Positions 2,420-23,205 of a stretch of 64,000 nt of DNA are shown one piece after another. The position numbers and the translations under genes were made by a program. The DNA comes from Naegleria gruberi (Eukaryota), in assembly GCA_000004985.1 (NCBI GenBank), contig GG738846.1, one strand, 5' to 3'. The first letter of the stretch is position 1. Each line of letters begins with the position of its first letter. The notes beneath the pieces were generated by a model. The model was not told where the DNA came from. It ran no database searches and saw nothing but the letters and a program-made list of their open reading frames with translations.

Positions 2420-5400
2420 ATGGTTCAAAACTTGCCATGCCTAACTAAGAGGCAAATACCATCGTCATCTTTTATTCTCACCATGAATTCTCTTGTAATA
2501 CTCCTCTTTTTATTAATTGACATATCACATCAGCAAGAAATCCTTAATTGCCACGGCTTTCTCTCCAATGATACAATGGTCTGCAGTGGACACGGAACGT
2601 GTATAGCCAATAACCATTGCTCATGTAGGCCTGGTTATGGTGGTGAACAGTGTCAAGAAATTTCATGTTTTAACAATTATCCAAGGATGGTTCAATGTAG
2701 TAATCATGGAGAGTGTATTGCCCTCGATACATGTACATGTTACGATTTATATACAGGTCCAAATTGTGAACAATGTAAACAACCATTCCATGAAGGAGAA
2801 CATTGTACTCCCATTCAATGTTTTGGTGTTGAATATTCAGTGAAGAGTGTTTGTTCTGGTAATGGTGATTGCATTGCATCAAATAATTGTTCTTGTCGTG
2901 ATGGTTTTGTTGGTGAGAGATGTGAACAATTCACTTGTTTAAATTCAACTCTGAATAATACAGAATCAAACAATTCAGTGTTGATTCCATGTTCTGGACA
3001 CGGAGAATGTGTCAAAGCCAATAATACATGCAATTGTTATTCGGATGTTTTGTATGGTTTTTGGGCTGGTGCAAATTGTGATTCTTGTAAATCAGGTTAT
3101 GGGGGAACAGAATGTAAGGAACAAGTTTGTTCCTCATTAACAACTTGTAACGGTAGAGGTGAATGTACACAACATAATGAACCAAAGAATAATGTGAAGT
3201 ACTTCTTTGCTGGTTATCAATTAATATCAAGGAGTGCAATTCGTGCTCAAAATTTCAGAAATTTAACATTAGAGGGAAGTATTGCAACTGAAGGAGGTTT
3301 CTCAGTTCAAGTTTTGAGATCAGCATATGGTCAAGTGAATGTAAGAAATGACATTTCAAAAAATATGGTCAACTCTGCTATTTCTCTCTATCAAGAATTT
3401 TCATCTCTTGATTGTGATCAAACCATGCAACAATCCATTCCAAGTGGAGGTTTAAATCTAAAAGCTGGCACTTACTGTTTCCCACAAGGGTTAAATGGAG
3501 GAGGAAAGATTTCTGTTTCTGGAAGTGGAAGAATTGTCTTGATTTTAAAAACCAATTTGAATTATGGCTTCACTGTTGAATATTTAGATGGTGCCACAGT
3601 TGATAATCTATTCTGGGTAGTTGCTATGGGTAGTTCCATTAGTGGTAAATTCTCTGGTAATTTACTGACAGTTGGTCAAATTAATGTTAATAATGCATTC
3701 ATTTCTGGATCAATTATCAATGTAGGATCTTCTGAAATGAACCTCAATGGAGCTTCATTCGGTCCAATCTACTCCCCTCCTGTAGTAGATCCTTGTAAAT
3801 GTTTCGGTAATTATGCTCCTCCATACTGTGAATCATGTAGTGCTGGTTTCTTTGGAGACAATTGTACTCTCTCATGCTCACCAGAAAGGAATTGTAATGG
3901 AAGAGGTCAATGTTCACAAACAGGTTCTTGCTTATGTGGACCAAGATTTTCTGGTGCCTATTGTGAAGTGTGTGCAACAAAATGGATTGGAAAGAATTGT
4001 GACTACTTGATTGGAGACAGAGCCATGTTGAAAATAAGCAAATTGACTATTCAATATGCAAATCCATCCAAATCTACCCAAATAGATTGTTCTTCGATTC
4101 TCCTTGACGAAACTGTAAAAGAATTAGGATCCTCTCCTCAATGTTATTGGGATGACAAGTCAACCAATAGTTTCGTAATTGATTTAGGATTTGGGAATAC
4201 CATATATGCTGGATCCATTCTCAAATTCAAACTTGAAAATGGAAACTCTGCTCTTGTCACTGTCTATACAGATCCAAACTCAACCAACAATCCCCCAACT
4301 CCAATTCTAAAAGTTTCTTCTAAAATCTCAACATGTGCCCGATTAGAATTGGATACCTCATCTTCATATTCTCCAGATAAGAAATCTATTAGTTACAAAT
4401 TTGAGGTGACATCAACTCCAAATGAAAATTCAATGGTAGTTTTGAGAAGGGAATTATCACTCTTTGAAAATCAAGCATTTTTCAATATAGCTGCTTCCAA
4501 ATTAGCTGTTGGATCCTACAGCATCAAACTAACTGTTTCTAGTCCAGTAACTGGAAGTGCTTCAACTCAAGTAACATTCGAAATCATCCCAGTTCCTCCT
4601 CCAATCATTGATATTCCTGGAGGTTTATCTCAATCATTCGTTTATGGATCTGTAGTTGTAATTAATCCTCAAATTAGCGTTGCAGGATGCTCTAATAATG
4701 ATGGTTCCATAATTTACTCTCCTGCCAAATATCAAGATTTTTCCTATAATTGGGAACAAGTTTCAGGAAATGCAACCAAATTTTCACAAGAATCCTATAA
4801 TAGAATTCTTGTCATTTCAAGTCTACAAAATGAAGGAAGTTTCAAATTAAGTGTCTCGTCCTCAACTGGTTATTCTGATCGAGTGACAGTTGAATTGAAA
4901 TTGAAAGAGAGTGAATTGGTTTTGAAAATAAGAAATGGTAATTTCCTCTATGGAAAAGTGAACCAAGCAATGACTGTTGATTTTTCTCAATCCTATGATC
5001 CAACTAAAACTTTGGAGAAGGAGGAATTCTCAATTGTTTGTATTCCTTTGGGAGTTCTTGCTGTTTGTCCAATTTCTGAAATCTATGCCAATGTGAATCA
5101 AGAAAAAATGTTCACAATCGCAGAGAATTCATTGGTTGCAGGTTTGTATCAATTTACCATTTCCTATTCGAAAGGACGTCGTTCCAAGACTGAAACAGTT
5201 GTTGTGGAATTGGCTGAATACGTCTTTTTGAATGTTTTCATCAAGATGGCCACCAATGATTTCCTTCCAACATCTGTTCCTTTGGGAATGAATGTTTCAT
5301 TAGAAGCAGTTTCTCCACCAGATATTAGAAATGAAGTCACCTACATTTGGAGTTCCAGGACGAGTGGATTTACTCTGAATGATCAAACAACAATATCAGG

Positions 5401-5824
5401 AATAACCGGACCATTTTTAACCATTCGTGGTGAAGTACTCCAACCAGATACTTTTTATACCATCAGATTAGACGCGCAGTGGAATAAGTTGAATGGTTTT
5501 TCAGAATATTATCTTGCAATTAATACTCCACCTAAACCAGGTTATTTTACAGTCAATCCATTACAAAGTAAATCTGGTATTGACACTGTGACGCTTTCAT
5601 GTAGTGGATGGTCGGATGATAATACACCACTCTCCTATCAATTCTTTTTCAATGATGCAAAAACTTCAAGTTGGCAAGCATTAACTGGAAAAGTTTCCAC
5701 CAATCAGGTCAATGTAATGTTGCCTCCTGGTTATGGATCTTCTTCTCAATTAACAATTAAGGCAAGAGTTTATGACTCTACAGGTGCATTTAGTGAAATG
5801 CAACAAGTTGTAATGTCCAGTTGA
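2420..5824 (+). CDS. EGF-like repeat secreted protein with a large beta-rich extracellular region; probable true start is the in-frame ATG at 2483 (MNSLVILLFLLIDISHQ signal peptide)
   Basis: 1134-aa ORF. The N-terminus after the signal peptide has about 7 EGF-like modules (CSGHGTCIANNHCSCRPGYGGEQCQ and similar), followed by about 800 aa of repeated beta-sandwich-like sequence (PPPIIDIPGG). No transmembrane segment. Confidence 0.7.
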   Translation: MVQNLPCLTKRQIPSSSFILTMNSLVILLFLLIDISHQQEILNCHGFLSNDTMVCSGHGTCIANNHCSCRPGYGGEQCQEISCFNNYPRMVQCSNHGECIALDTCTCYDLYTGPNCEQCKQPFHEGEHCTPIQCFGVEYSVKSVCSGNGDCIASNNCSCRDGFVGERCEQFTCLNSTLNNTESNNSVLIPCSGHGECVKANNTCNCYSDVLYGFWAGANCDSCKSGYGGTECKEQVCSSLTTCNGRGECTQHNEPKNNVKYFFAGYQLISRSAIRAQNFRNLTLEGSIATEGGFSVQVLRSAYGQVNVRNDISKNMVNSAISLYQEFSSLDCDQTMQQSIPSGGLNLKAGTYCFPQGLNGGGKISVSGSGRIVLILKTNLNYGFTVEYLDGATVDNLFWVVAMGSSISGKFSGNLLTVGQINVNNAFISGSIINVGSSEMNLNGASFGPIYSPPVVDPCKCFGNYAPPYCESCSAGFFGDNCTLSCSPERNCNGRGQCSQTGSCLCGPRFSGAYCEVCATKWIGKNCDYLIGDRAMLKISKLTIQYANPSKSTQIDCSSILLDETVKELGSSPQCYWDDKSTNSFVIDLGFGNTIYAGSILKFKLENGNSALVTVYTDPNSTNNPPTPILKVSSKISTCARLELDTSSSYSPDKKSISYKFEVTSTPNENSMVVLRRELSLFENQAFFNIAASKLAVGSYSIKLTVSSPVTGSASTQVTFEIIPVPPPIIDIPGGLSQSFVYGSVVVINPQISVAGCSNNDGSIIYSPAKYQDFSYNWEQVSGNATKFSQESYNRILVISSLQNEGSFKLSVSSSTGYSDRVTVELKLKESELVLKIRNGNFLYGKVNQAMTVDFSQSYDPTKTLEKEEFSIVCIPLGVLAVCPISEIYANVNQEKMFTIAENSLVAGLYQFTISYSKGRRSKTETVVVELAEYVFLNVFIKMATNDFLPTSVPLGMNVSLEAVSPPDIRNEVTYIWSSRTSGFTLNDQTTISGITGPFLTIRGEVLQPDTFYTIRLDAQWNKLNGFSEYYLAINTPPKPGYFTVNPLQSKSGIDTVTLSCSGWSDDNTPLSYQFFFNDAKTSSWQALTGKVSTNQVNVMLPPGYGSSSQLTIKARVYDSTGAFSEMQQVVMSS

Positions 5825-6351: not shown

Positions 6352-9111
6352 ATGGGAGGAGGAAATTCAAAACAAAAACTACAAGTGGAAATGACTCTTG
6401 TAGATGATGAATCAAAAATTGATCTTCTCATTGATCATACACCAAATCCTGCAAAGGTTGGAAGCCCCCTTCCTTTCGTTAATAATACTTACACATTGAG
6501 AGCATCCACACCAACCTCAAACCTTCCACCAGAACCTACCATAACAATCAGCACAACAAATTCTCTCACCACTGATCTTAAACCGTACCTGCCCAAACAA
6601 AATTCCAAAAAGAATACTAACCCAAGAACTAACAAAACCAATAGTAACCCTTCCGAATCTAATTTACTTCCTAAAATTACACAACAACGTCAATCTTTTG
6701 ATGCTTCTATGCTTCAATCTGGGAGAAACTCTCCTGCTGGTGAATCTTCAACTATAGTAACTAATAATCGAGCAAAATCAAAATCAAACTCTAGGGTTGT
6801 GGATGTTCCTTCTCCGTCTGTAAACAATAACTTGTCACCAGCAGTTACTTTGGATGACAGATCAACCCTACTAACAGGATACAAGACACATAGTACTCAA
6901 TCACTAATGTCCTCAACTAGTATCAAAGATAGTGAACTATTGAATTTTCATGGAGATGTCTGTATTGAAAATAAGGCTCATCTAGTGAGCTTGGTAATTA
7001 GCAATATGGACGATATGGTTTTTATAATAACTGATTTGAAAAATAATTATTACATTTATGAAACTTCATACCCGAGGTTTTTACAGAAATTCTTTTCTGG
7101 TGAAGAAAGCGCAGCCTCCCTTCCACCCTATAAGAGGCATAGAAGAATGCTCGATATGATTGGTCTGGCATTCTCATTTCAAACCTACAGTGTTATTCCT
7201 GAGTCGGCCGATAACAATATCAAAATATCCCTTACCTTGAAATATCAAGCTGACAATATTGACAAGACAGTAGTGTTCAAGCTGATAAAGCATGTTCCAG
7301 ATTTAACTGATCCATCTAATAGGCTGATACACTCCACTATTTGTAAATTAATTATTGGTCTGTTTGGAAGTTATCACAATTCGAGAAAAGACAAAACAAA
7401 TATCCTAAGACAAACAATTCCAACCATGGCACTTATCACGGAAGTTGGAACAAATGCACAACAAGAAGATGAAGAGGAGGAAGAGGAACCTGAATACAGT
7501 TTGAGATCAGATAAATCTGAAGATGATCTAGTAAATCTTAAAGAAACCAAAAGAGAAGAAAAATCAAAAATGGATGAACCACCAAAACTCTCATTTTCGA
7601 TGGAACAGTCAGGAGAACAAGAAGAATCCAAGGTTATCAAAGTTAAAAAATTAGGTGTAAAACCAGCTAAAAAGTTTGTCACTGTCACAATTGATGAAGA
7701 GCCAGACTTGATTACCACTACAGAAATGGTAGTCTTTTTGAGAAAGCTACAAGCACTTCTATCTTTAAGAGATGATATTCCCTTCGATAAGAATAAGTTT
7801 TCTCTCATCATTAAAACCATAGCTAAGAATTCAGATATTGTTGAGGACGAAATTAAGGATACAAATCCTGATCTAGAAGTTTCAGCCTTCTTGAACGCAT
7901 TTGTAAAGCCTAGAGCAAAATCAAGGGAAAGGGCTGGGTGGAGAACAATTGCAAATCTCATTAGAGTTGGTGTTGTTTTCAAGCAACAAACTCTTCAAAC
8001 AACTGTCAAGAATATTAATGCAATCGATAGTAACCCTGGATTGGAAGAGAAATTGAAGAGTATAGATCGATATGACTTTGATGTGTTTGAATTAAATGAA
8101 GCATCGAGGGGAAAGCCACTGTATGTGATATTTACCTATTACCTTCGTCGATTTGGATTGTTGGAACATTTCAATATTGACAGAGAAGTCTTGCATGCAT
8201 TCCTTAGAGAGATTGAAACTCACTATGGGTACAATGCCTTCCACAATAGCATTCATGCTGCTGACGTACTTCAAACATTCATGTACCTATTAGATTTGAT
8301 AGGTATGATTCCGTTCCTTACTCATGAGGAATTGTTGGCTGTCATATTGGCAGCTGCCATGCACGATTTTCAACATCCAGGAACAACAAATCAATTCCAA
8401 ATCCTTTCATCCTCTGATTTGGCCATTACTTATAGTGACAAGTCAGTATTAGAGAGCCACCATGTTGCCTCCTTCTACAGAGTCCTCCAACAAGAGAAAT
8501 ACAACATTCTGAAAACACTATCAGCCAAACAAAGAAGGCAAATCAGAGAAATTTCAATTGGTCTGATATCAGCAACGGATTTATCATTCCAAGGAAGTTT
8601 TATGAATCAATTACAAGCAGTTTATGATGTTTCACATGGTCACATTGATTTAATGTCTGAAAAGTCTCTAGTTCTAAAACTTTGCCTCAAATTGGCCGAC
8701 ACTGCAAATACCTCAAAACCTCTCTATCTGCACTTTTCCTGGATCTCTCGGCTACAAAGAGAATTCTTCATCCAAGGCGATAAGGAAAAAGAGTTGGGTA
8801 TGGATGTTAGCCCTTTCATGGACAGAACCAAGTGCAACTTTACAAAATGTCAAAATTCTTTTATTGAATATGTGACCTATCCGTATGTGGCTTTATTCGC
8901 AAAATGCTTTAAAGAAGCAGCTCCAATACTGGAATATTCAAAACAAGTCAAAGAATATTGGTCGAATAGTGTGGTAGTTAGTACATTCGAGGAAGTTGAA
9001 CAAATGATTAGAAATGAGCTTGCAAAGGTTAATAAGGTTGTGACGCAGTCACATTTGGGAGCAAACACGTCATTCAACACGACACCAAGAGAACAAGGGA
9101 CAGAAGAATAA
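6352..9111 (+). CDS. 3',5'-cyclic nucleotide phosphodiesterase (class I catalytic domain), N-myristoylation motif, long low-complexity N-terminal half
   Basis: The C-terminal region contains YHNSIHAADVLQ..MHDFQHPGTTNQF, matching the class I PDE signature HDxxHxG and metal-binding histidines. The N-terminus MGGGNSKQK fits the Met-Gly-x-x-x-Ser N-myristoylation consensus. Single 919-aa ORF. Confidence 0.85.
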   Translation: MGGGNSKQKLQVEMTLVDDESKIDLLIDHTPNPAKVGSPLPFVNNTYTLRASTPTSNLPPEPTITISTTNSLTTDLKPYLPKQNSKKNTNPRTNKTNSNPSESNLLPKITQQRQSFDASMLQSGRNSPAGESSTIVTNNRAKSKSNSRVVDVPSPSVNNNLSPAVTLDDRSTLLTGYKTHSTQSLMSSTSIKDSELLNFHGDVCIENKAHLVSLVISNMDDMVFIITDLKNNYYIYETSYPRFLQKFFSGEESAASLPPYKRHRRMLDMIGLAFSFQTYSVIPESADNNIKISLTLKYQADNIDKTVVFKLIKHVPDLTDPSNRLIHSTICKLIIGLFGSYHNSRKDKTNILRQTIPTMALITEVGTNAQQEDEEEEEEPEYSLRSDKSEDDLVNLKETKREEKSKMDEPPKLSFSMEQSGEQEESKVIKVKKLGVKPAKKFVTVTIDEEPDLITTTEMVVFLRKLQALLSLRDDIPFDKNKFSLIIKTIAKNSDIVEDEIKDTNPDLEVSAFLNAFVKPRAKSRERAGWRTIANLIRVGVVFKQQTLQTTVKNINAIDSNPGLEEKLKSIDRYDFDVFELNEASRGKPLYVIFTYYLRRFGLLEHFNIDREVLHAFLREIETHYGYNAFHNSIHAADVLQTFMYLLDLIGMIPFLTHEELLAVILAAAMHDFQHPGTTNQFQILSSSDLAITYSDKSVLESHHVASFYRVLQQEKYNILKTLSAKQRRQIREISIGLISATDLSFQGSFMNQLQAVYDVSHGHIDLMSEKSLVLKLCLKLADTANTSKPLYLHFSWISRLQREFFIQGDKEKELGMDVSPFMDRTKCNFTKCQNSFIEYVTYPYVALFAKCFKEAAPILEYSKQVKEYWSNSVVVSTFEEVEQMIRNELAKVNKVVTQSHLGANTSFNTTPREQGTEE

Positions 9112-10798: not shown

Positions 10799-12262
10799 TT
10801 ATTTCAAATTAGAACTAAAATGAACATATTTTGCTTTGGCTGATGACTTGCTCTTGATGGATTCATTTTGGGTCCTGTGATTTGATCTTTGTTGAACATT
10901 AGAACACCAATACATGTTCATAATCTTATTACCACTTGTGAGGTATACATCTTTGGTACGCATCTCATTCAAACATTCTCTCAATTCATTGATTAAGTTT
11001 TGACAATACTGATCATTTGAAGTAATACTCATAGTAATGGTATTGATCGCTGTGTTAATAATTAATCGAGCAGCATCAAGTTGATTGGAATCGGCTAAGG
11101 CCTTTGCTTTCTGTAATGCTTCAGTTTGTAGGAGTCTATTCTTTTGGAGGTCTATTAAACGATTATCTGTTAAATTGCCACCAACTGTCATTTCACCTCT
11201 TGTAATATGGGTGATACATTGAAGAGCTTCCTTTTCAATCTTTTCGATATTCATGTATTCTAATTGAATATCTAATAATTGTTGCTTTTCAATTCCACAA
11301 GATTCTGCCAACAATTCCAATTCAAACAAAATATCTCTATTTTCTTCATAGTATAAATCTTTCAATTTGATATGAATCTCCTTATTAGGAAGTATTATTT
11401 CTTGCTTTACAAATCCATATTCTGAATTTAAAATTCTCTTCAGCAATACTCGATCTGAAATGCATTTGAATTTGAGTACAATATTTTGGGCAAATACAGA
11501 GATTAAACCTCCCAAACAATCTGAAAATGCTTGGGGAATTTCATCTTCTGATTTAATGTAATAGTACAAGCCTCCTCCAACTTTACAAATCTCTGTCAAA
11601 CAATTTGCCGAATGTTCCTCTCCAAAACCAAAAGTAAATACACTAGTATTATTTGAATTGATTGACATGTTTGAAAATGAATTAATTAAATTATTGACGT
11701 TTGTTTGACTTGAAAAACTAGTATTTTGCAAATTCAACTTGGTATATAATTTTTCTACAATATTTACAATCTTATCTTGTTGTTGCACACCAACAGTTGG
11801 TAATCCATCAGTGAAAAGTAGAATTGATGTTGTAGGAGAAATATTACCTCCTCTATTTGCCAATATATCAAAGGCTTCAATAATGGCTCCACTAATATTA
11901 GTAGTTGTACCCAACTTGATATTATTTACACAATTCATTGCTTGTTTCTTACCACCATTATCCATAGAGGTCAACTTTAAAGTGGTTGAAACGTTTGCAT
12001 CAAATTCAACAATTCCTAGCCTGTCTCTTGCTTGCATCTGATCAATCATGAATAATAATGACTTTTTAACCAACTCAATCTTATCACTCATAGAACCAGA
12101 TTTATCAAGGACAGCAATTATATCCAAGCTCGATCTATTCTCCTTCTCAACATATATTGGAGCTTTAATAGATGCCATACCAAACATATTTTGTGTTTGA
12201 TTATATTTGACCTGATCATATTCAAAGGTACAACTGAAAGAAACGCTTGGTGGAATGAGCAT
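10799..12262 (-). CDS. von Willebrand factor type A (vWA) domain protein with MIDAS motif
   Basis: DIIAVLDKSGSM (DxSxS MIDAS) followed by TNISGAI and LLFTDGLPT spacing typical of vWA domains. The first ATG of the ORF is at 12262 (MLIPPSV); the track start at 12319 is a GTG alternative start. An acceptor-like TTTCTTTCAG sits just downstream of the ATG, so the 5' end is slightly uncertain. Confidence 0.7.
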   Translation of the reverse strand: MLIPPSVSFSCTFEYDQVKYNQTQNMFGMASIKAPIYVEKENRSSLDIIAVLDKSGSMSDKIELVKKSLLFMIDQMQARDRLGIVEFDANVSTTLKLTSMDNGGKKQAMNCVNNIKLGTTTNISGAIIEAFDILANRGGNISPTTSILLFTDGLPTVGVQQQDKIVNIVEKLYTKLNLQNTSFSSQTNVNNLINSFSNMSINSNNTSVFTFGFGEEHSANCLTEICKVGGGLYYYIKSEDEIPQAFSDCLGGLISVFAQNIVLKFKCISDRVLLKRILNSEYGFVKQEIILPNKEIHIKLKDLYYEENRDILFELELLAESCGIEKQQLLDIQLEYMNIEKIEKEALQCITHITRGEMTVGGNLTDNRLIDLQKNRLLQTEALQKAKALADSNQLDAARLIINTAINTITMSITSNDQYCQNLINELRECLNEMRTKDVYLTSGNKIMNMYWCSNVQQRSNHRTQNESIKSKSSAKAKYVHFSSNLK

Positions 12263-12580
12263 TATTAATTTATTCTTTTTTTTTGATTTTGAAAAACTCA
12301 GCAGAACTGTTAACAACACTTCAATGATTATTAATAGGTACTAAGTACCAAGTTCCATCAACCAGAAAATATACCTTATTCCAAGCAAGGTTTTGTTCTG
12401 TTTGATTGGAATTTTATTGGAGAGAATTATTTGGCAATCTGTTGGATTTCTTAGGAAAAATATATTCAGCGGCTGAGGGTGATGGGAAATTCTTATTCAA
12501 GTATCTGGACTTGTCGTAAAAAAAACTCAATCATCTTCTTCGTTGAAAACTTGAAACACCAAGTCTCTTGGTGTTGGTCT

Positions 12581-14059: not shown

Positions 14060-16685
14060 TCAGTTTAGAACCTTATTTAAATCCAAGCATTTATGAAGAA
14101 GGTAAAGAGCTACTTTGTCCTCTTCATAATACTTCTCTTGATAGGAAGACTGATGGAACTGAAATAGATCAATTGCTTCATCAAGGTCTCCTTCAAAAAA
14201 TTTGGCACATGCTTGGTTGTGGTGTTCCCAAGAATCTTTGAGACCACTGCTTGACTGTCTCCATTCTTCAGAATCTTCCATAGAGGTAGTTTCTCCTACC
14301 TGATACAACCTCGTTGGAAAACTTACTCTATCTTGTTTTGGTGAAATAATTGGAGAATTACCTTCATCATCTGCAAGCAGCTTTTTTTCTCCCACAAATC
14401 TGAAATTGTAACTATCCTTATTCTTTTCAAAAATTGACTCTGAAACAATGAGAGAAATTTCCAATTTGCTTGCATGCTTAATCAACAGCTGTAAATTGTG
14501 TAAATAACTTCCAAATATTGCATAATTCTTAATTTGAGAAGTCCCAACGTTACCACAAACACAGTGTTGTGAAAGTAACGAGCCTCTAAATGTAAACTTT
14601 AAATTTTGAATATGCGAATTCTTCCACTTCTTATCTCGAGTTGCTTTTAACCTTCTCAATATTTGATAAACAGAAAAAGTTGCTGACTCTTCATGTGAAC
14701 TCGATTCAATGATAGAATTCCAAGTAATAGTTATGTAATTATTCTCAAAGCTTCCTATTTGCCCATTGGTGGCTTGCGCAGTTTTCTGTATGATAACAAA
14801 ACAGTCATTGAGAACAGAAACAGTCTCATCAAAATCAAGAGCTGACAAGAAGTGATCCAAACCTTCAAAATAAATCATACCACTTGTTACTCTTCTCTTT
14901 TCCAATCCTAGACAAAACAATCGTTCTAGTTTTGGAGTAGTAGCTGCTGCATCTCTTGTTATCACAGATATTTGACCATTTACACTTCCTGAGGTCGATG
15001 TCAAAGAGTGTTGTCTTTCCAAGATCATTCTTCCTATTGTTGACTTTCTTAAATTGACTTCCATATCTAGCTTTTGAAGAATATGTGGCGGAAGGAATGC
15101 TCTGTAATTTTTCAGCCTTGTCAACATGGTTTGGAAATGCTTTTGTAAAATGTTGACCTCTGCCAATGATGACGGCCTCATCTGGATGTCTTCAAGTCTC
15201 ATGTTTGAAATTGATTCGAATACTGTTGTCAATTGTTGAAATGGGCGGAAGAGAGAAATGCTCGACACGACCCCCATCACTGCACCCACAATGGCAATAA
15301 TCAAACTTGACAGAATACCAACAATCAAGGCAATAAATAACTGACCAACATAGTCCCATTTTGGAACATTTAGCACTAGCAGCCAATCCACTCCTGCCTT
15401 ACAAAACCTATTCATGCAAATAACACTGTCTTCATTTGTAAAAAACTGGTACTCTCCACATTTGAGAGATTTCAAGTTATTATTCATAGAAGTGTAGATT
15501 AATTTGGAAACAGATCGTATCTTGGGTTGTTCAAAAGTTAGGGCAGTCATTCTTGTCTCTGTTCTATCTTGATTGAATTTAGAAACTGGTATATCAGGAA
15601 AACTTGCTATTATTGTTACATTTGAGGATTTCATTATACCACTACTTACAAACAACAATATAATTCGTCTCTATTTCAATAGCAAAAGCTACAGAGCCGC
15701 TTATAGCTTCAGTGACTGATTCAATGTAATTTGAAATTGACGATACACTGATATCAATTCCAAAATACCAATCATATGGTAGTTTTGAGCTATTGTCAGG
15801 ATGTGAATTGACACAACTCATAAATGTTATAGAAGGTAACGTTGGGTCAGTGTAAGACCTCGAAAATTGAGGCTTATTGGGGGAATTATTTGCAACACCC
15901 ATGATTTTAGACATATCAAATGGTCCCAGTATGACATCAGGAACATCCTTATTCTTGTAGTCACAAAATCCCTTATTTAAAAAATCATCACAATACCAAT
16001 AATATTGTCCAGTCTCATTAATTAACATTTGAGTTGGTTTTCCTCCTAATACTAACACTCCCAAATTCCCTCCCAGAGTGTCTCTTGGAAAAGTTTCTTT
16101 TAAATTGAAATGTTTCTGAAAAACTTACCCAAAATAAACAGTCACCATTAAGGTTGATAAATACGTAAATGCACTCTTATAAATCCTATATGTCAAAGAG
16201 TAGGCATTCTCAGTATTGTTATAATTAAAATCCTCCCACATTATATTCTTTGTTGTATCTGAAACAACTAGAACCTTATCAATGGTTTCATCGGTGAAAT
16301 TTACAACTTTTTCAATTTGTTGCCTTAATACATCCTGACTAAATTTTGAAACACTCGAACTAAAACAAGAAATCCATATTGTAGTGAGTAATAGAGAAGT
16401 AACAATTACTAAAGAGACCATAATTACTATTAAAACACACTTGATGGAGTATACAGTCCTCGTCTCTCCATTTCCTCCCTCATAATTTCCACCACTATTA
16501 TTATTATTATTATTATTATTATTATCCTGAATATATATTGAGGAAACTTTTTCATCATTCCCAGTTTCATTCCTAGAGGAATAACTTGCTTGCTCTTCCG
16601 ATGTATTAAATTTAATGCTAGCAATGTTGGGCAGTGAATCACGGTCATCATACGCAAGAACCTTATTATTTCTCATGTAATACAT
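14060..16685 (-). CDS. two-transmembrane sensor protein with a cytoplasmic class III nucleotidyl-cyclase homology domain that appears catalytically degenerate (pseudo-cyclase); 3 exons
   Basis: Exons are complement(16129..16685), complement(15650..16083) and complement(14060..15606), joined by a 45-nt and a 43-nt GTAAGT..AG intron. The first intron removes the in-frame TAA that separates two same-frame track ORFs; the second restores the frame. Topology: TM1 (VLIVIMVSLVIVTSLLLTTIWI), an extracellular segment of about 330 aa, TM2 (LFIALIVGILSSLIIAIVGAVMGV), then a cyclase-homology region. LNDCFVIIQKTAQATNGQIGSF resembles [25 protein letters not shown], and FRGSLLSQHCVCGNVGTSQIKNYAIFGSYLHN resembles [26 protein letters not shown]. 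The metal-binding Asp positions read E and S, and the transition-state Arg is replaced. Confidence 0.65.
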
Positions 16686-22013: not shown

Positions 22014-23205
22014 ATGTCCAGATTATTGCTTGGTGTGTTGCTTGTTGCCATCATCTTGACTTGTGTTGCTTGTCAAGAGCATGTTGAAAAAGAGGGATGG
22101 GATGGTGTTGGCTTTTTCCTAGGTGAGAAATCTGCATCTCAACTCCAAATGGTATGTCAATATTATTATTTCACATCACTAATTATTGTATTATATATAT
22201 TGAACTCTCTAGACAAAAAGAAGAAGTGAAATTCTTTCAATTTTGAACAAACCACCACAACCTTCCAACAAGATTACATCCACTAATCAATCCATTAGAG
22301 ATGTCATTGCTAATGCTCAACTTCCAACATCATCTACTATTAAATTCCCAAATAATAGATTCCCTTCATGCACAAAACAACATTGTAAAAAATTCTGTCG
22401 TCATGGTTTCCAAACTGATGCTCGTGGTTGTCCAATGTGTGCATGTAAACAACCTTGTCCAACTTATAGAGCTTGTAAAAGAAAATGTGAGTTTGGCTAT
22501 GTTCTCGATGCAAATGGTTGTAATAGTAAATGCCAATGCAAAGAAGCTCCAGCTCTTGTCAAACCTAAACCAATATGCCCACAATATTTGTGCAGACGTC
22601 ATTGTCAATTTGGATTCAAAATTAATGAAAAGGGTTGCAGAACTTGTTCCTGTAATGAAAAACCAATCAAACCTAAACCATTAAGTATTTGTCCACTTTA
22701 TAGATGTAGACGTCATTGTCAATTTGGATTCAAAATTAATGAAAAGGGTTGCAGAACTTGTTCCTGTAATGAAAAACCAATCAAACCATCAAGTATTTGC
22801 CCACTTTATGGATGTAGACGTTACTGTCCATATGGATTCAAGATTAATGAAAAGGGATGTACTACTTGTTCCTGTAATGAAACGCCAAATACCACAAAGC
22901 CATTCCCAATCAAACCAATATGCCCACAATATTTGTGTAGACGTCATTGTCAATTTGGATTCAAGATTAATGAAAAGGGTTGCAGAACTTGTTCCTGTAA
23001 TGAAAAGCCAAATACCACAAAGCCTTTCCCAATCAAACCAAACCCAATCAAGCCAGATTTTATTAGAAGATTCATCCAAAATCAAACCAAGCCACTCAAG
23101 TTAAACAATGGCCAAAAAATTGAGACATTGTTTACCAAACCAGCTGTGTTGAGAGCTGAATCTGCTCCAGTCAGAACTTTTCCAAGAAGAGGTGGTAGAA
23201 GATAA
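22014..23205 (+). CDS. secreted protein with six antistasin-like cysteine-knot domains (serine-protease-inhibitor type); 2 exons
   Basis: Exon 1 is 22014..22151 (signal peptide MSRLLLGVLLVAIILTCVACQ, ends ..CAAATG|GTATGT). A 61-nt intron runs to CTCTAG|. Exon 2 is 22213..23205. The domains CRRHCQFGFKINEKGCRTCSCNEKP, CKRKCEFGYVLDANGCNSKCQCKE and CKKFCRHGFQTDARGCPMCACKQ match antistasin/hirustasin (CRVHCPHGFQRSRYGCEFCKC; CRIRCKYGLKKDENGCEYPCSC). Confidence 0.75.
22545..23045 (+). repeat. four tandem, nearly identical coding repeats of about 117-129 nt (antistasin-like domains 3-6), separated by PKP/PIKP linkers
   Basis: The nucleotide strings ...tgtagacgtcattgtcaatttggattcaa[a/g]attaatgaaaagggttgcagaacttgttcctgtaatgaaaa... 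recur with only a few substitutions. The track shows mirror-image spurious ORFs in other frames, as expected for tandem repeats. Confidence 0.8.

What the first reader, a model, noticed from the sequence alone, without database searches (positions are those of the whole stretch)
14060..16685. Membrane sensor with a degenerate class III cyclase homology domain (candidate pseudo-cyclase), 5 kb from a cNMP phosphodiesterase gene
The architecture is TM, a roughly 330-aa extracellular domain, TM, then a cyclase-homology domain. This is the layout of bacterial-type sensor cyclases and of sensor adenylyl cyclases such as Dictyostelium ACG. In this protein the two metal-binding Asp positions read E and S (YFEGLD; IGSFEN) and the transition-state Arg is replaced (YLHNLQLL). 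The protein probably cannot cyclise nucleotides as a homodimer; it may act as a regulatory or heterodimer partner, or as a nucleotide-binding sensor. Reconstructing the gene needs two very short introns (45 and 43 nt), one of which removes an in-frame TAA.
Basis: partly seen in the sequence, partly recalled or inferred. Interest (0 to 1): 0.65.

Follow-up and report, generated by a model that had tools for sequence, protein, structure and literature searches.

The report
Naegleria dCache receptor with dead cyclase domain
This is a real but apparently unannotated Naegleria gruberi gene for a membrane receptor that joins a bacterial-type extracellular ligand sensor to a cyclase-like domain lacking every residue needed to make cAMP or cGMP, and it belongs to a large family of similarly disabled receptors.

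Summary
The gene is real. It has three exons on the minus strand (16685..14060), with introns of 45 and 43 nt, and encodes 845 aa. Both exon junctions are collinear with homologues.

The window is N. gruberi NEG-M, but no annotated protein for this gene was found.

The architecture is TM1, a 310-aa extracellular domain, TM2, a HAMP-like hairpin, a helix, a disordered linker, a cyclase homology domain (CHD) and a TPR-like tail.
- **Extracellular domain:** it is a double-Cache (dCache) sensor. The AF2 model of the N. lovaniensis homologue's domain has pLDDT 91, and all top 50 PDB fold matches are dCache domains.
- **CHD:** the protein itself gets no Pfam PF00211 hit. A family profile hits class III cyclases at E=1e-19, and the model superposes on CyaB (TM 0.84).

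All six canonical catalytic positions are replaced: Asp→Y576, Asp→N620, Lys→S616, Asp/Thr→N691, Asn→H700, Arg→L704.

Only 1 of 130 aligned family CHDs keeps the full catalytic set. The CHD is about as conserved (43%) as the sensor (48%), so it is probably functional but non-catalytic. Lacking both halves of the active site, it could only poison a heterodimer, not complement one.

The PDE gene 5 kb away is real. Its adjacency is absent at the N. lovaniensis homologue's locus and is probably coincidental.

The parts
16129..16685 (-). Exon 1 (residues 1-185 plus 2 nt). It encodes a low-complexity cytoplasmic N-terminus with a poly-Asn run, TM1 (residues ~81-106, nt 16368-16445) and the start of the extracellular domain.
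   Evidence: ORF list, sequence and splicing script. Hydropathy. Alignment with P0002.
16084..16128 (-). Intron 1, 45 nt, GTAAGT...CCAAG. It contains the in-frame TAA that ends the exon-1 ORF.
   Evidence: The junction VTVYFG|DTLGGN is collinear with VTVYFGDTKGGN of P0002 and with the family consensus Y.GD..G. The N. lovaniensis gene has no intron at this site.
15650..16083 (-). Exon 2, the middle of the extracellular dCache domain.
15607..15649 (-). Intron 2, 43 nt, GTAAGT...AATAG. It contains an in-frame TAG.
   Evidence: The junction NYIVV|SSFPDIP is collinear with DFIIASSFPTLP. The N. lovaniensis gene has an intron at the same codon.
14060..15606 (-). Exon 3 (residues 331-845 plus the stop codon at 14060-14062). 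It encodes the end of the dCache domain, TM2, the HAMP-like hairpin, the helix, the linker, the CHD and the TPR-like tail.
15347..16367 (-). Extracellular double-Cache (dCache) sensor domain, residues 107-417, spanning both introns. It has 5 N-glycosylation sequons and 6 Cys; C217, C226, C380 and C399 are conserved with P0002.
   Evidence: A family profile hits only dCache sensor domains in the PDB (7k5n E=0.008; Mlp24/37; PctB). The AF2 model of the homologue's extracellular domain has pLDDT 90.7. The Foldseek top 50 are all dCache ligand-binding domains (PctD 4e-8, TlpQ, TlpA, Tlp3).
15254..15346 (-). TM2, residues ~418-448.
   Evidence: Hydropathy.
15089..15253 (-). HAMP-like helix-connector-helix, residues 449-503 (helices 450-464 and 479-500).
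   Evidence: AF2 model. It is 44% identical to P0002. There is no Pfam HAMP hit.
14933..15088 (-). Long helix (residues 504-530) starting at the family-invariant F.P.H.L motif (FLPPHILQKL), which resembles a cyclase-transducer element. A disordered Ser/Thr-rich linker follows (531-555).
   Evidence: AF2 model: helix 56-82 and pLDDT below 50 for model residues 86-105. Invariant F53, P55 and H57 in A5. Only 17% identity to P0002. The cyclase-transducer resemblance is from memory and was not tested.
14288..14932 (-). Degenerate class III cyclase homology domain, residues 556-770. The catalytic positions read Y576 (nt 14870-14872), S616, N620 (nt 14738-14740), N691, H700 (nt 14498-14500) and L704 (nt 14486-14488).
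   Evidence: Family profile against the PDB: CyaB 3r5g E=1.1e-19, plus Cya2, CyaC, OaPAC, bPAC, AC5/8/9 and GCs. 18 of 33 family CHDs hit PF00211 individually. Foldseek of the window model: CyaB TM 0.84, rmsd 2.9 A. Residue mapping.
14063..14287 (-). C-terminal four-helix TPR-like module, residues 771-845. It follows the family motif YxxGE...(D/E)EW.
   Evidence: AF2 helices 329-339, 343-354, 357-375 and 380-396 with pLDDT about 95-98. Weak TPR Pfam hits in the same region of paralogues P0006 and P0008. Family consensus YELG...DEWMYEL.

Best explanation
The locus is a functional Naegleria gruberi gene for a type-III-cyclase-derived receptor.

Shown:
- The domain order runs from a cytoplasmic N-terminal tail through TM1, an extracellular dCache ligand-binding domain and TM2. 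It continues with a HAMP-like hairpin, a long helix, a flexible linker, a cyclase homology domain (CHD) of class IIIb ancestry and a TPR-like helical tail.
- The CHD has lost all six canonical catalytic residues: both metal-binding Asp, the substrate Lys and Asp/Thr, and the transition-state Asn and Arg.
- The same loss is seen in nearly all members of a large, mostly heterolobosean family.
- The CHD is nevertheless conserved about as well as the sensor domain.

Inferred:
- The protein does not synthesise cAMP or cGMP.
- A small extracellular ligand binds the dCache. The conformational change passes through TM2 and the HAMP-like and helical segments to a CHD dimer that acts as a non-catalytic output module.
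- That output is either a regulated protein-interaction or nucleotide-binding scaffold working with the TPR-like tail, or an inhibitory (dominant-negative) partner of catalytically competent paralogues. Class III active sites are built across the dimer interface, so a subunit lacking both residue sets kills both sites.

The PDE gene 5 kb away is a neighbour, not a functional partner.
For: Gene model:
- Spliced ORF of 845 aa.
- Collinear with N. lovaniensis C9374_003550 across both junctions.
- Shared intron position.
- A 99.6%-identical copy with an intact ORF sits on an environmental contig with the same VWA neighbour.

Organism: exact matches of neighbouring ORFs to N. gruberi NEG-M proteins EFC50139, EFC50141 and EFC50142.

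dCache.

CHD homology.

Catalytic mapping:
- Direct window-OaPAC alignment and profile-CyaB alignment.
- The alignment columns recover a canonical DDKSNR signature in Willaertia P0122, so the register is sound.

Family-wide degeneracy, out of 130 aligned CHDs:
- 3 have Asp at site 1.
- 2 have both Asp.
- 1 has both Asn and Arg.
- 1 is fully canonical.

Constraint, as identity to P0002:
- CHD 43%, extracellular domain 48%, HAMP-like 44%.
- Linker 17%, N-terminus 12%.
- Family-specific near-invariant residues N627, G682, N683, G685 and R733.

That metal-Asp loss abolishes class III catalysis, and that sites form across the dimer, is established knowledge (the Tesmer/Sprang AC structures and the Linder & Schultz reviews). 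I cite it from memory.
Against: - There is no transcript, protein or enzymatic evidence.
- The protein itself fails PF00211, so residue equivalences rest on profile alignments and a monomer model. The structural position of the substituted residues was not inspected at atomic level.
- Some mycobacterial cyclases with non-canonical substrate residues are still active (from memory), so non-canonical chemistry cannot be excluded by sequence alone.
- Acidic residues E578, D581 and E618 lie near the lost Asp positions in this protein, although they are not conserved in the family.
- No dimer model was made, and no interaction partner is known.
Confidence: 0.65

Rival explanations
1. It is a non-canonical but active cyclase. 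The domain still cyclises ATP or GTP using other residues, such as E578, D581 or E618, as metal ligands.
For: The CHD fold is intact and well conserved. The GN.GT...K.F...G purine-pocket motif typical of class IIIb cyclases is retained. Acidic residues lie near the lost Asp positions in this protein.
Against: All six canonical positions are replaced, not just the specificity residues. The nearby acidic residues are not conserved in the family: column 578 reads E/P/D/S, column 581 D/S/N and column 618 E/D/S/N. To my knowledge, no class III cyclase lacking both metal Asp has been shown to be active.
Confidence: 0.1
2. It is a complementing heterodimer subunit, like mammalian C1/C2 or sGC alpha/beta. 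It supplies one half of a single active site with a paralogue supplying the other half.
For: Many paralogues exist with which it could pair. 40 of 130 family CHDs keep the second Asp and 13 keep the Arg.
Against: This protein lacks both the Asp pair (Y576, N620) and the Lys/Asp/Asn/Arg set (S616, N691, H700, L704), so it can contribute neither half. In the family, only 2 of 130 have both Asp and only 1 has both Asn and Arg, so complementary C1-like and C2-like classes are not evident.
Confidence: 0.05
3. It is a decaying relic: a pseudogene, or a dispensable remnant of an expanded cyclase family.
For: It is absent from the annotated NEG-M protein set as far as I could search. There is no Pfam hit. 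Identity to its closest N. lovaniensis homologues is only 41% and 39%.
Against: - The frame is uninterrupted over 845 codons with canonical splice sites.
- Conservation is domain-specific: folded domains 43-50% against linkers 12-17%.
- Family-specific motifs are retained.
- An intact, near-identical allele occurs in an environmental sample.
- AF2 models are confident.
Confidence: 0.07
4. It forms a functional cNMP module with the neighbouring phosphodiesterase, the two being co-regulated as a sensor and a degrading enzyme.
For: A bona fide PDEase_I gene lies at 6352..9111, 4.9 kb from the 3' end of this gene.
Against: Four ORFs on mixed strands lie between them. The N. lovaniensis homologue has unrelated neighbours (kinase, BCDHK-like, GT4, RimK) and no PDE within 10 kb. 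Naegleria has many cyclase-domain genes (PMC9928731), so chance proximity is plausible. Eukaryotic gene order rarely implies function.
Confidence: 0.05

Closest known systems
Bacterial and cyanobacterial class IIIb adenylyl/guanylyl cyclases (P. aeruginosa CyaB 3r5g, Synechocystis Cya2 2w01, Spirulina CyaC 1wc0, OaPAC and bPAC)
   Same: These are the best sequence-profile and fold matches (E=1e-19; TM 0.84, rmsd 2.9 A). They share the GN.G(S/T) motif and the overall CHD topology.
   Different: All of them keep the two metal Asp, the Lys, the Thr/Asp, the Asn and the Arg, and are active enzymes. The window protein has Y, N, S, N, H and L at those positions. It also has an inserted loop before the last strand and a TPR-like tail.
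Bacterial dCache-containing transmembrane receptors (chemoreceptors PctD, TlpQ, TlpA, Tlp3 and Mlp24/37; HK1S-Z sensor kinases; dCache diguanylate cyclase 7k5n)
   Same: They share the extracytoplasmic double-PDC fold with a long N-terminal helix, placed between two TM helices and followed by a HAMP-type linker.
   Different: Sequence identity is only 9-14%, and no Pfam dCache hit was obtained. In the profile alignment the RxWY ligand motif of amino-acid-sensing dCache domains is not evident. The domain has extra Cys pairs and N-glycosylation sequons, and its output domain is a dead CHD in a eukaryote.
The single Naegleria Cache-adenylate cyclase noted by Upadhyay et al. 2016 (PMC4822843)
   Same: It shows the same concept: a bacterial-type Cache sensor fused to a class III cyclase domain in Naegleria.
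   Different: That paper reports Cache in a single Naegleria protein, detected by Pfam-type HMMs. Here the dCache is cryptic to HMMs and occurs in at least five other N. gruberi paralogues plus N. lovaniensis, Willaertia and Percolomonas members. The CHD is also catalytically degenerate.
Pseudo-heterodimeric cyclases (mammalian tmAC C1/C2, soluble guanylyl cyclase alpha/beta)
   Same: They contain CHDs in which individual domains lack part of the catalytic set, giving a degenerate regulatory pocket.
   Different: In those enzymes the two domains are complementary and together make one active site. The window CHD lacks both complementary sets and so cannot contribute to any canonical site.
Dictyostelium ACG and trypanosomatid receptor-type adenylyl cyclases
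   Same: They are eukaryotic membrane proteins with an extracellular sensor and an intracellular class III CHD.
   Different: Those are active enzymes with different extracellular folds and topology. This statement is from memory and from PMC9928731's remark that ACG resembles trypanosome receptor cyclases. No direct comparison was run here.

Membership tests
Class III nucleotidyl cyclase catalytic domain (CHD, Pfam PF00211) | Sequence or profile homology to the CHD | tested here: met
   A family profile (A3, window sequence first) hits CyaB at E=1.1e-19 and more than 50 other cyclase chains. 18 of 33 family CHDs hit PF00211 individually.
Class III nucleotidyl cyclase catalytic domain (CHD, Pfam PF00211) | The protein itself reaches the PF00211 gathering score | tested here: not met
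   No PF00211 match even at E<=10 for the spliced protein, for exon 3 alone or for the N. lovaniensis homologue.
Class III nucleotidyl cyclase catalytic domain (CHD, Pfam PF00211) | CHD fold (beta-alpha-beta-beta-alpha-beta palm-like core) | tested here: met
   The AF2 model has pLDDT 85 overall and above 90 across most of the CHD. Foldseek: CyaB TM 0.84 and rmsd 2.9 A, and all top 50 hits are class III cyclases.
Class III nucleotidyl cyclase catalytic domain (CHD, Pfam PF00211) | Two metal-binding Asp | tested here: not met
   Y576 and N620 occupy these positions in the alignments to CyaB and OaPAC. Family columns read K/Y/R/H and D/S/N/E.
Class III nucleotidyl cyclase catalytic domain (CHD, Pfam PF00211) | Substrate-defining Lys (or Glu) and Asp/Thr (or Cys) | tested here: not met
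   S616 and N691.
Class III nucleotidyl cyclase catalytic domain (CHD, Pfam PF00211) | Transition-state Asn and Arg | tested here: not met
   H700 and L704.
Class III nucleotidyl cyclase catalytic domain (CHD, Pfam PF00211) | Cyclase activity (ATP or GTP converted to cNMP) | not testable with these tools
   This needs a biochemical assay of the recombinant cytoplasmic domain.
dCache (double Cache/PDC) extracytoplasmic sensor | Two stacked PDC modules with a long N-terminal helix | tested here: met
   AF2 model of the homologue's extracellular domain, which is 48% identical to the window's (pLDDT 90.7). The Foldseek top 50 are all dCache ligand-binding domains, E down to 4e-8.
dCache (double Cache/PDC) extracytoplasmic sensor | Match to Pfam dCache or Cache HMMs | tested here: not met
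   No Cache-family hit for the window protein or for 8 of 9 scanned paralogues. Only P0051 gives MCP-like_PDC_1 at E=7e-4, below the gathering score. The family profile hits PDB dCache domains marginally, at E=0.008-0.04.
dCache (double Cache/PDC) extracytoplasmic sensor | Located between two TM helices on the extracytoplasmic side | tested here: met
   Hydropathy peaks at residues 81-106 and 418-448. Five N-x-S/T sequons and conserved Cys lie only in the intervening segment. The orientation is inferred.
dCache (double Cache/PDC) extracytoplasmic sensor | Amino-acid-binding motif (RxWY ... D) of dCache_1AA sensors | tested here: inconclusive
   In the profile alignment to 7k5n and Mlp37, the PWY position aligns with non-aromatic family residues. 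The alignment is short and weak, and no ligand-pocket analysis was done.
HAMP linker | Helix, ~14-residue connector and helix directly after TM2 | tested here: met
   The AF2 model has helices at 450-464 and 479-500 joined by a 14-residue connector.
HAMP linker | Match to Pfam HAMP (PF00672) | tested here: not met
   No HAMP hit in the window protein or in 9 paralogues.
Complementing pseudo-heterodimeric cyclase subunit (C1- or C2-like) | Retains one complete half of the catalytic set (the Asp pair, or Lys/Asp/Asn/Arg) | tested here: not met
   The signature is Y N S N H L, so neither half is present.

The most novel reading that the evidence does not exclude
Heteroloboseans, and some other Discoba, may carry a large and previously unrecognised class of cell-surface receptors. 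In these, a bacterial-type dCache sensor drives a cyclase domain that has been converted, family-wide, into a non-catalytic output module: a nucleotide-binding or protein-docking switch, or a ligand-controlled inhibitor of active cyclases. If so, a substantial part of Naegleria's reported repertoire of about 81 or more cyclases makes no cyclic nucleotide, and Cache-type sensing is far more common in this eukaryote than the single protein reported.
Probability: 0.35. Interest if true: 0.7.

Novelty: new variant of a known kind. Interest (0 to 1): 0.5.

Why it matters
Naegleria is repeatedly cited for an unusually large complement of adenylate/guanylate cyclases, at least 81 in the pangenome paper (PMC9928731). 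It is also cited for having Cache in only one protein (PMC4822843).

This locus shows two things. A whole family of two-TM receptors has a dCache sensor that HMMs miss. Its cyclase domain has also lost every catalytic residue while staying under constraint.

Three consequences follow:
- Domain counts overstate cNMP-producing capacity.
- Cache sensing in this lineage is under-counted.
- The family adds a eukaryotic receptor pseudoenzyme whose output mechanism is open. It can be tested directly with recombinant domains.

The locus also flags a gene that appears to be missing from the reference N. gruberi annotation.

Tried and rejected
I used per-exon translations, the contiguous cytoplasmic region and the N. 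lovaniensis homologue instead.
2. The three word-indexed homologue searches returned only 2, 1 and 4 proteins. They did not give the named N. gruberi census I wanted. Family size therefore rests on the representative search and on 20 cluster look-ups.
3. A dN/dS comparison against the environmental allele was uninformative, with only 7 differences in 1641 nt.
4. The AFDB50 fold search, intended to count N. gruberi paralogues by organism, was not available.
5. The N. gruberi genome paper (Cell 2010) is not held in the library. Its cyclase count is therefore not cited.
6. Literature searches for pseudo-cyclase, degenerate cyclase, and CHD with pseudoenzyme found nothing relevant.
7. A tblastn of 151 family proteins against the window found no second family member, which rules out a tandem partner gene in the window.
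8. I rejected the PDE linkage, because it is not seen at the N. lovaniensis homologue's locus.
Full report
**Observation and gene model**

The minus strand between 16685 and 14060 carries three ORFs. They join in frame when two short introns are removed:
- 16128-16084, 45 nt, GTAAGT...CCAAG
- 15649-15607, 43 nt, GTAAGT...AATAG

The product is 845 aa. Intron 1 contains the in-frame TAA and intron 2 an in-frame TAG.

The spliced protein aligns collinearly, with no indel at either junction, with N. lovaniensis C9374_003550 (P0002, 41% identity, 90% coverage). That gene has an intron at exactly the codon of window intron 2. It has none at the intron-1 site and an extra one near the C-terminus.

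A 99.6%-identical copy of exon 3 with an intact ORF lies on an environmental contig that has the same VWA-domain neighbour.

**Organism and annotation status**

Neighbouring ORFs are exact matches to N. gruberi NEG-M proteins EFC50139, EFC50141 and EFC50142 on a 1.0-Mb scaffold. The window is therefore N. gruberi NEG-M.

No NCBI or UniProt protein matching this gene was retrieved. It appears to be missing from the reference annotation. The caveat is that those searches use a word index.

**Architecture**

Hydropathy gives two TM segments, at about residues 81-106 and 418-448. The 310-aa segment between them has five N-x-S/T sequons and six Cys, four of them conserved with P0002.

Pfam finds nothing in the protein at E<=10, neither Cache nor Guanylate_cyc.

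*The family.* A full HMMER search was run with a profile of P0002 plus the three exon translations. It found 1630 cluster representatives at E<=1e-3 and 94 at E<=1e-30. Named members come from:
- N. gruberi (at least five paralogues)
- N. lovaniensis
- Willaertia magna
- Percolomonas
- Entosiphon
- Apiculatamorpha
- soil and water metagenomes, some with N-terminal ankyrin repeats

Several are auto-annotated as "Guanylate cyclase domain-containing" or "class 3 adenylate cyclase".

*Extracellular domain.*
- A 20-sequence profile hits only dCache sensor domains in the PDB, and only marginally (7k5n E=0.008; Mlp24/37; PctB).
- An AF2 model of the P0002 extracellular domain, which is 48% identical to the window's, is confident (pLDDT 90.7).
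- Its top 50 Foldseek PDB matches are all dCache ligand-binding domains of chemoreceptors and sensor kinases (PctD 4e-8, TlpQ, TlpA, Tlp3, HK1S-Z).

*Cytoplasmic region.* An AF2 model of window residues 449-845 (pLDDT 85) shows, in order:
- a HAMP-like helix-connector-helix (450-500)
- a long helix (504-530) that begins with the family-invariant F.P.H.L motif
- a disordered Ser/Thr-rich linker
- a CHD (556-770)
- a four-helix TPR-like tail (pLDDT about 95-98)

**Is it a cyclase homology domain?**

Yes, at profile and fold level.
- The single sequence gives only E~0.2 hits to OaPAC and CyaB.
- A 33-sequence family profile led by the window sequence hits P. aeruginosa CyaB at E=1.1e-19. It also hits Cya2, CyaC, OaPAC, bPAC, AC5/8/9, rhodopsin-GC, sGC and GC-A.
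- 18 of the 33 family CHDs hit PF00211 individually.
- The window model superposes on CyaB with TM 0.84 and rmsd 2.9 A.

**Catalytic residues**

The window-OaPAC alignment and the profile-CyaB alignment give the same register.

| Canonical role | Window residue |
|---|---|
| Metal Asp 1 | Y576 |
| Metal Asp 2 | N620 |
| Substrate Lys | S616 |
| Substrate Asp/Thr | N691 |
| Transition-state Asn | H700 |
| Transition-state Arg | L704 |

Its Arg call was right. The conclusion that the domain is degenerate stands, and is stronger than stated, because all six positions are lost.

The same columns recover a canonical D-D-K-S-N-R signature in one Willaertia member (P0122), which validates the register.

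Across 130 aligned family CHDs:
- 3 have Asp at site 1.
- 40 have Asp at site 2.
- 2 have both Asp.
- 10 have the Asn and 13 the Arg, but only 1 has both.
- 1 is fully canonical.

The degeneracy is therefore a family trait. Within the window's own subclade the replacements are themselves conserved. Asp1 is Y or H and Asp2 is N, and the Asn position is usually aromatic (H, Y or F).

**Is the dead domain still functional?**

Identity between the window protein and P0002, by region:

| Region | Identity |
|---|---|
| Extracellular domain | 48% |
| HAMP-like segment | 44% |
| CHD | 43% |
| Linker | 17% |
| N-terminal tail | 12% |

Family-specific near-invariant residues persist: N627, G682-N683-x-G685, K690, F692, G696 and R733. 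This argues for purifying selection on a non-catalytic role. It argues against a decaying relic.

**Mechanism**

This section is inference. Class III active sites form across the dimer interface. One subunit supplies the Asp pair and the other supplies Lys, Asp/Thr, Asn and Arg. This is established knowledge, cited from memory.

A subunit lacking both sets cannot complement any partner, and in a heterodimer with a canonical subunit both sites would be dead.

The most likely working model has three steps:
1. A ligand binds the dCache domain.
2. The signal passes through TM2, the HAMP-like hairpin and the helix.
3. The conformation of a non-catalytic CHD dimer and its TPR-like tail changes.

That dimer would act as a docking or nucleotide-binding switch, or as a regulated inhibitor of active paralogues.

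**Context**

- The PDE gene is real (6352..9111, PF00233, E=4.6e-70).
- It is separated from this gene by four ORFs on mixed strands.
- The N. lovaniensis homologue has unrelated neighbours and no PDE.
- No second family member lies in the window.

**Comparison with the literature**

- Upadhyay et al. [quoted passage not shown]
- The Naegleria pangenome paper counts at least 81 cyclases (PMC9928731).
- I found no paper describing catalytically degenerate CHD receptors in Naegleria.

The finding is best classed as a new variant of a known kind, a receptor-type class III cyclase relative. It has two features not previously noted: a cryptic dCache in many paralogues, and family-wide loss of the catalytic set.

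**Verdict**

- The gene and its architecture are real (high confidence).
- It is a CHD by homology and fold, and it is not a canonical enzyme (high confidence).
- The non-catalytic signalling role and the inhibitory-heterodimer possibility are inferred (moderate confidence).
- The PDE linkage is rejected.
- Interest is moderate. It would rise if biochemistry confirms a new output mode for a large receptor family.

Noticed in passing
window 14060-16685: The gene seems to be absent from the N. gruberi NEG-M protein annotation. Flanking ORFs match EFC50139, EFC50141 and EFC50142 exactly. No NCBI or UniProt protein for this locus was retrieved. The only match was a metagenome-derived exon-3 ORF (P0001).
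   Followed up: partly
window 6352-9111 (+): An intron-less 919-aa ORF has a C-terminal class I cNMP phosphodiesterase domain (PF00233, E=4.6e-70). Its long N-terminal region has no recognised domain. The exact ORF translation is not in the protein collection, so the annotated model probably differs.
   Followed up: partly
window 2420-5824 (+): A 1134-aa ORF with a signal-like N-terminus carries teneurin-type EGF repeats, a PKD-like domain and a REJ domain (PF02010, E=8e-49). This is a polycystin/REJ-like surface protein in an amoeboflagellate.
   Followed up: no
window 10799-12319 (-): A VWA-domain protein carries a C-terminal CPSF6-like RSLD region. The same gene follows the receptor gene on the environmental contig L001, so local synteny is kept in that strain.
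   Followed up: no
window 22243-23205 (+): A 320-aa ORF is made of tandem Cys-rich repeats of about 40 aa (...CPQYLCRRHCQFGFKINEKGCRTCSCNEKP...). It was not analysed.
   Followed up: no
P0051, P0095, P0107 and related proteins (metagenome-derived family members): A subfamily of about 1150-1270 aa has 4-8 N-terminal cytoplasmic ankyrin repeats ahead of the same TM-dCache-TM-degenerate-CHD body (K/R at the Asp1 position and S/K at Asp2). It comes from JGI and Logan environmental assemblies of unknown organism.
   Followed up: partly
P0122 (Willaertia magna KAL9648894): This is the only family member among 130 with the full canonical catalytic signature (D, D, K, S, N, R) behind the same type of extracellular domain. 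It is a natural active-control candidate and a possible image of the ancestral state.
   Followed up: partly
L001 / L002 (ENA ERZ929261, run ERR1078381, PRJEB11402): An environmental metagenome contains a contig 99.6% identical at nucleotide level to this N. gruberi locus. A very close N. gruberi strain was therefore present in that sample.
   Followed up: no
L003 10001-12560 (N. lovaniensis C9374_003550): Intron positions differ between homologues. The intron-2 site is shared, the window's intron 1 is absent, and N. lovaniensis has an extra intron inside the conserved DEW|MYEL motif.
   Followed up: partly
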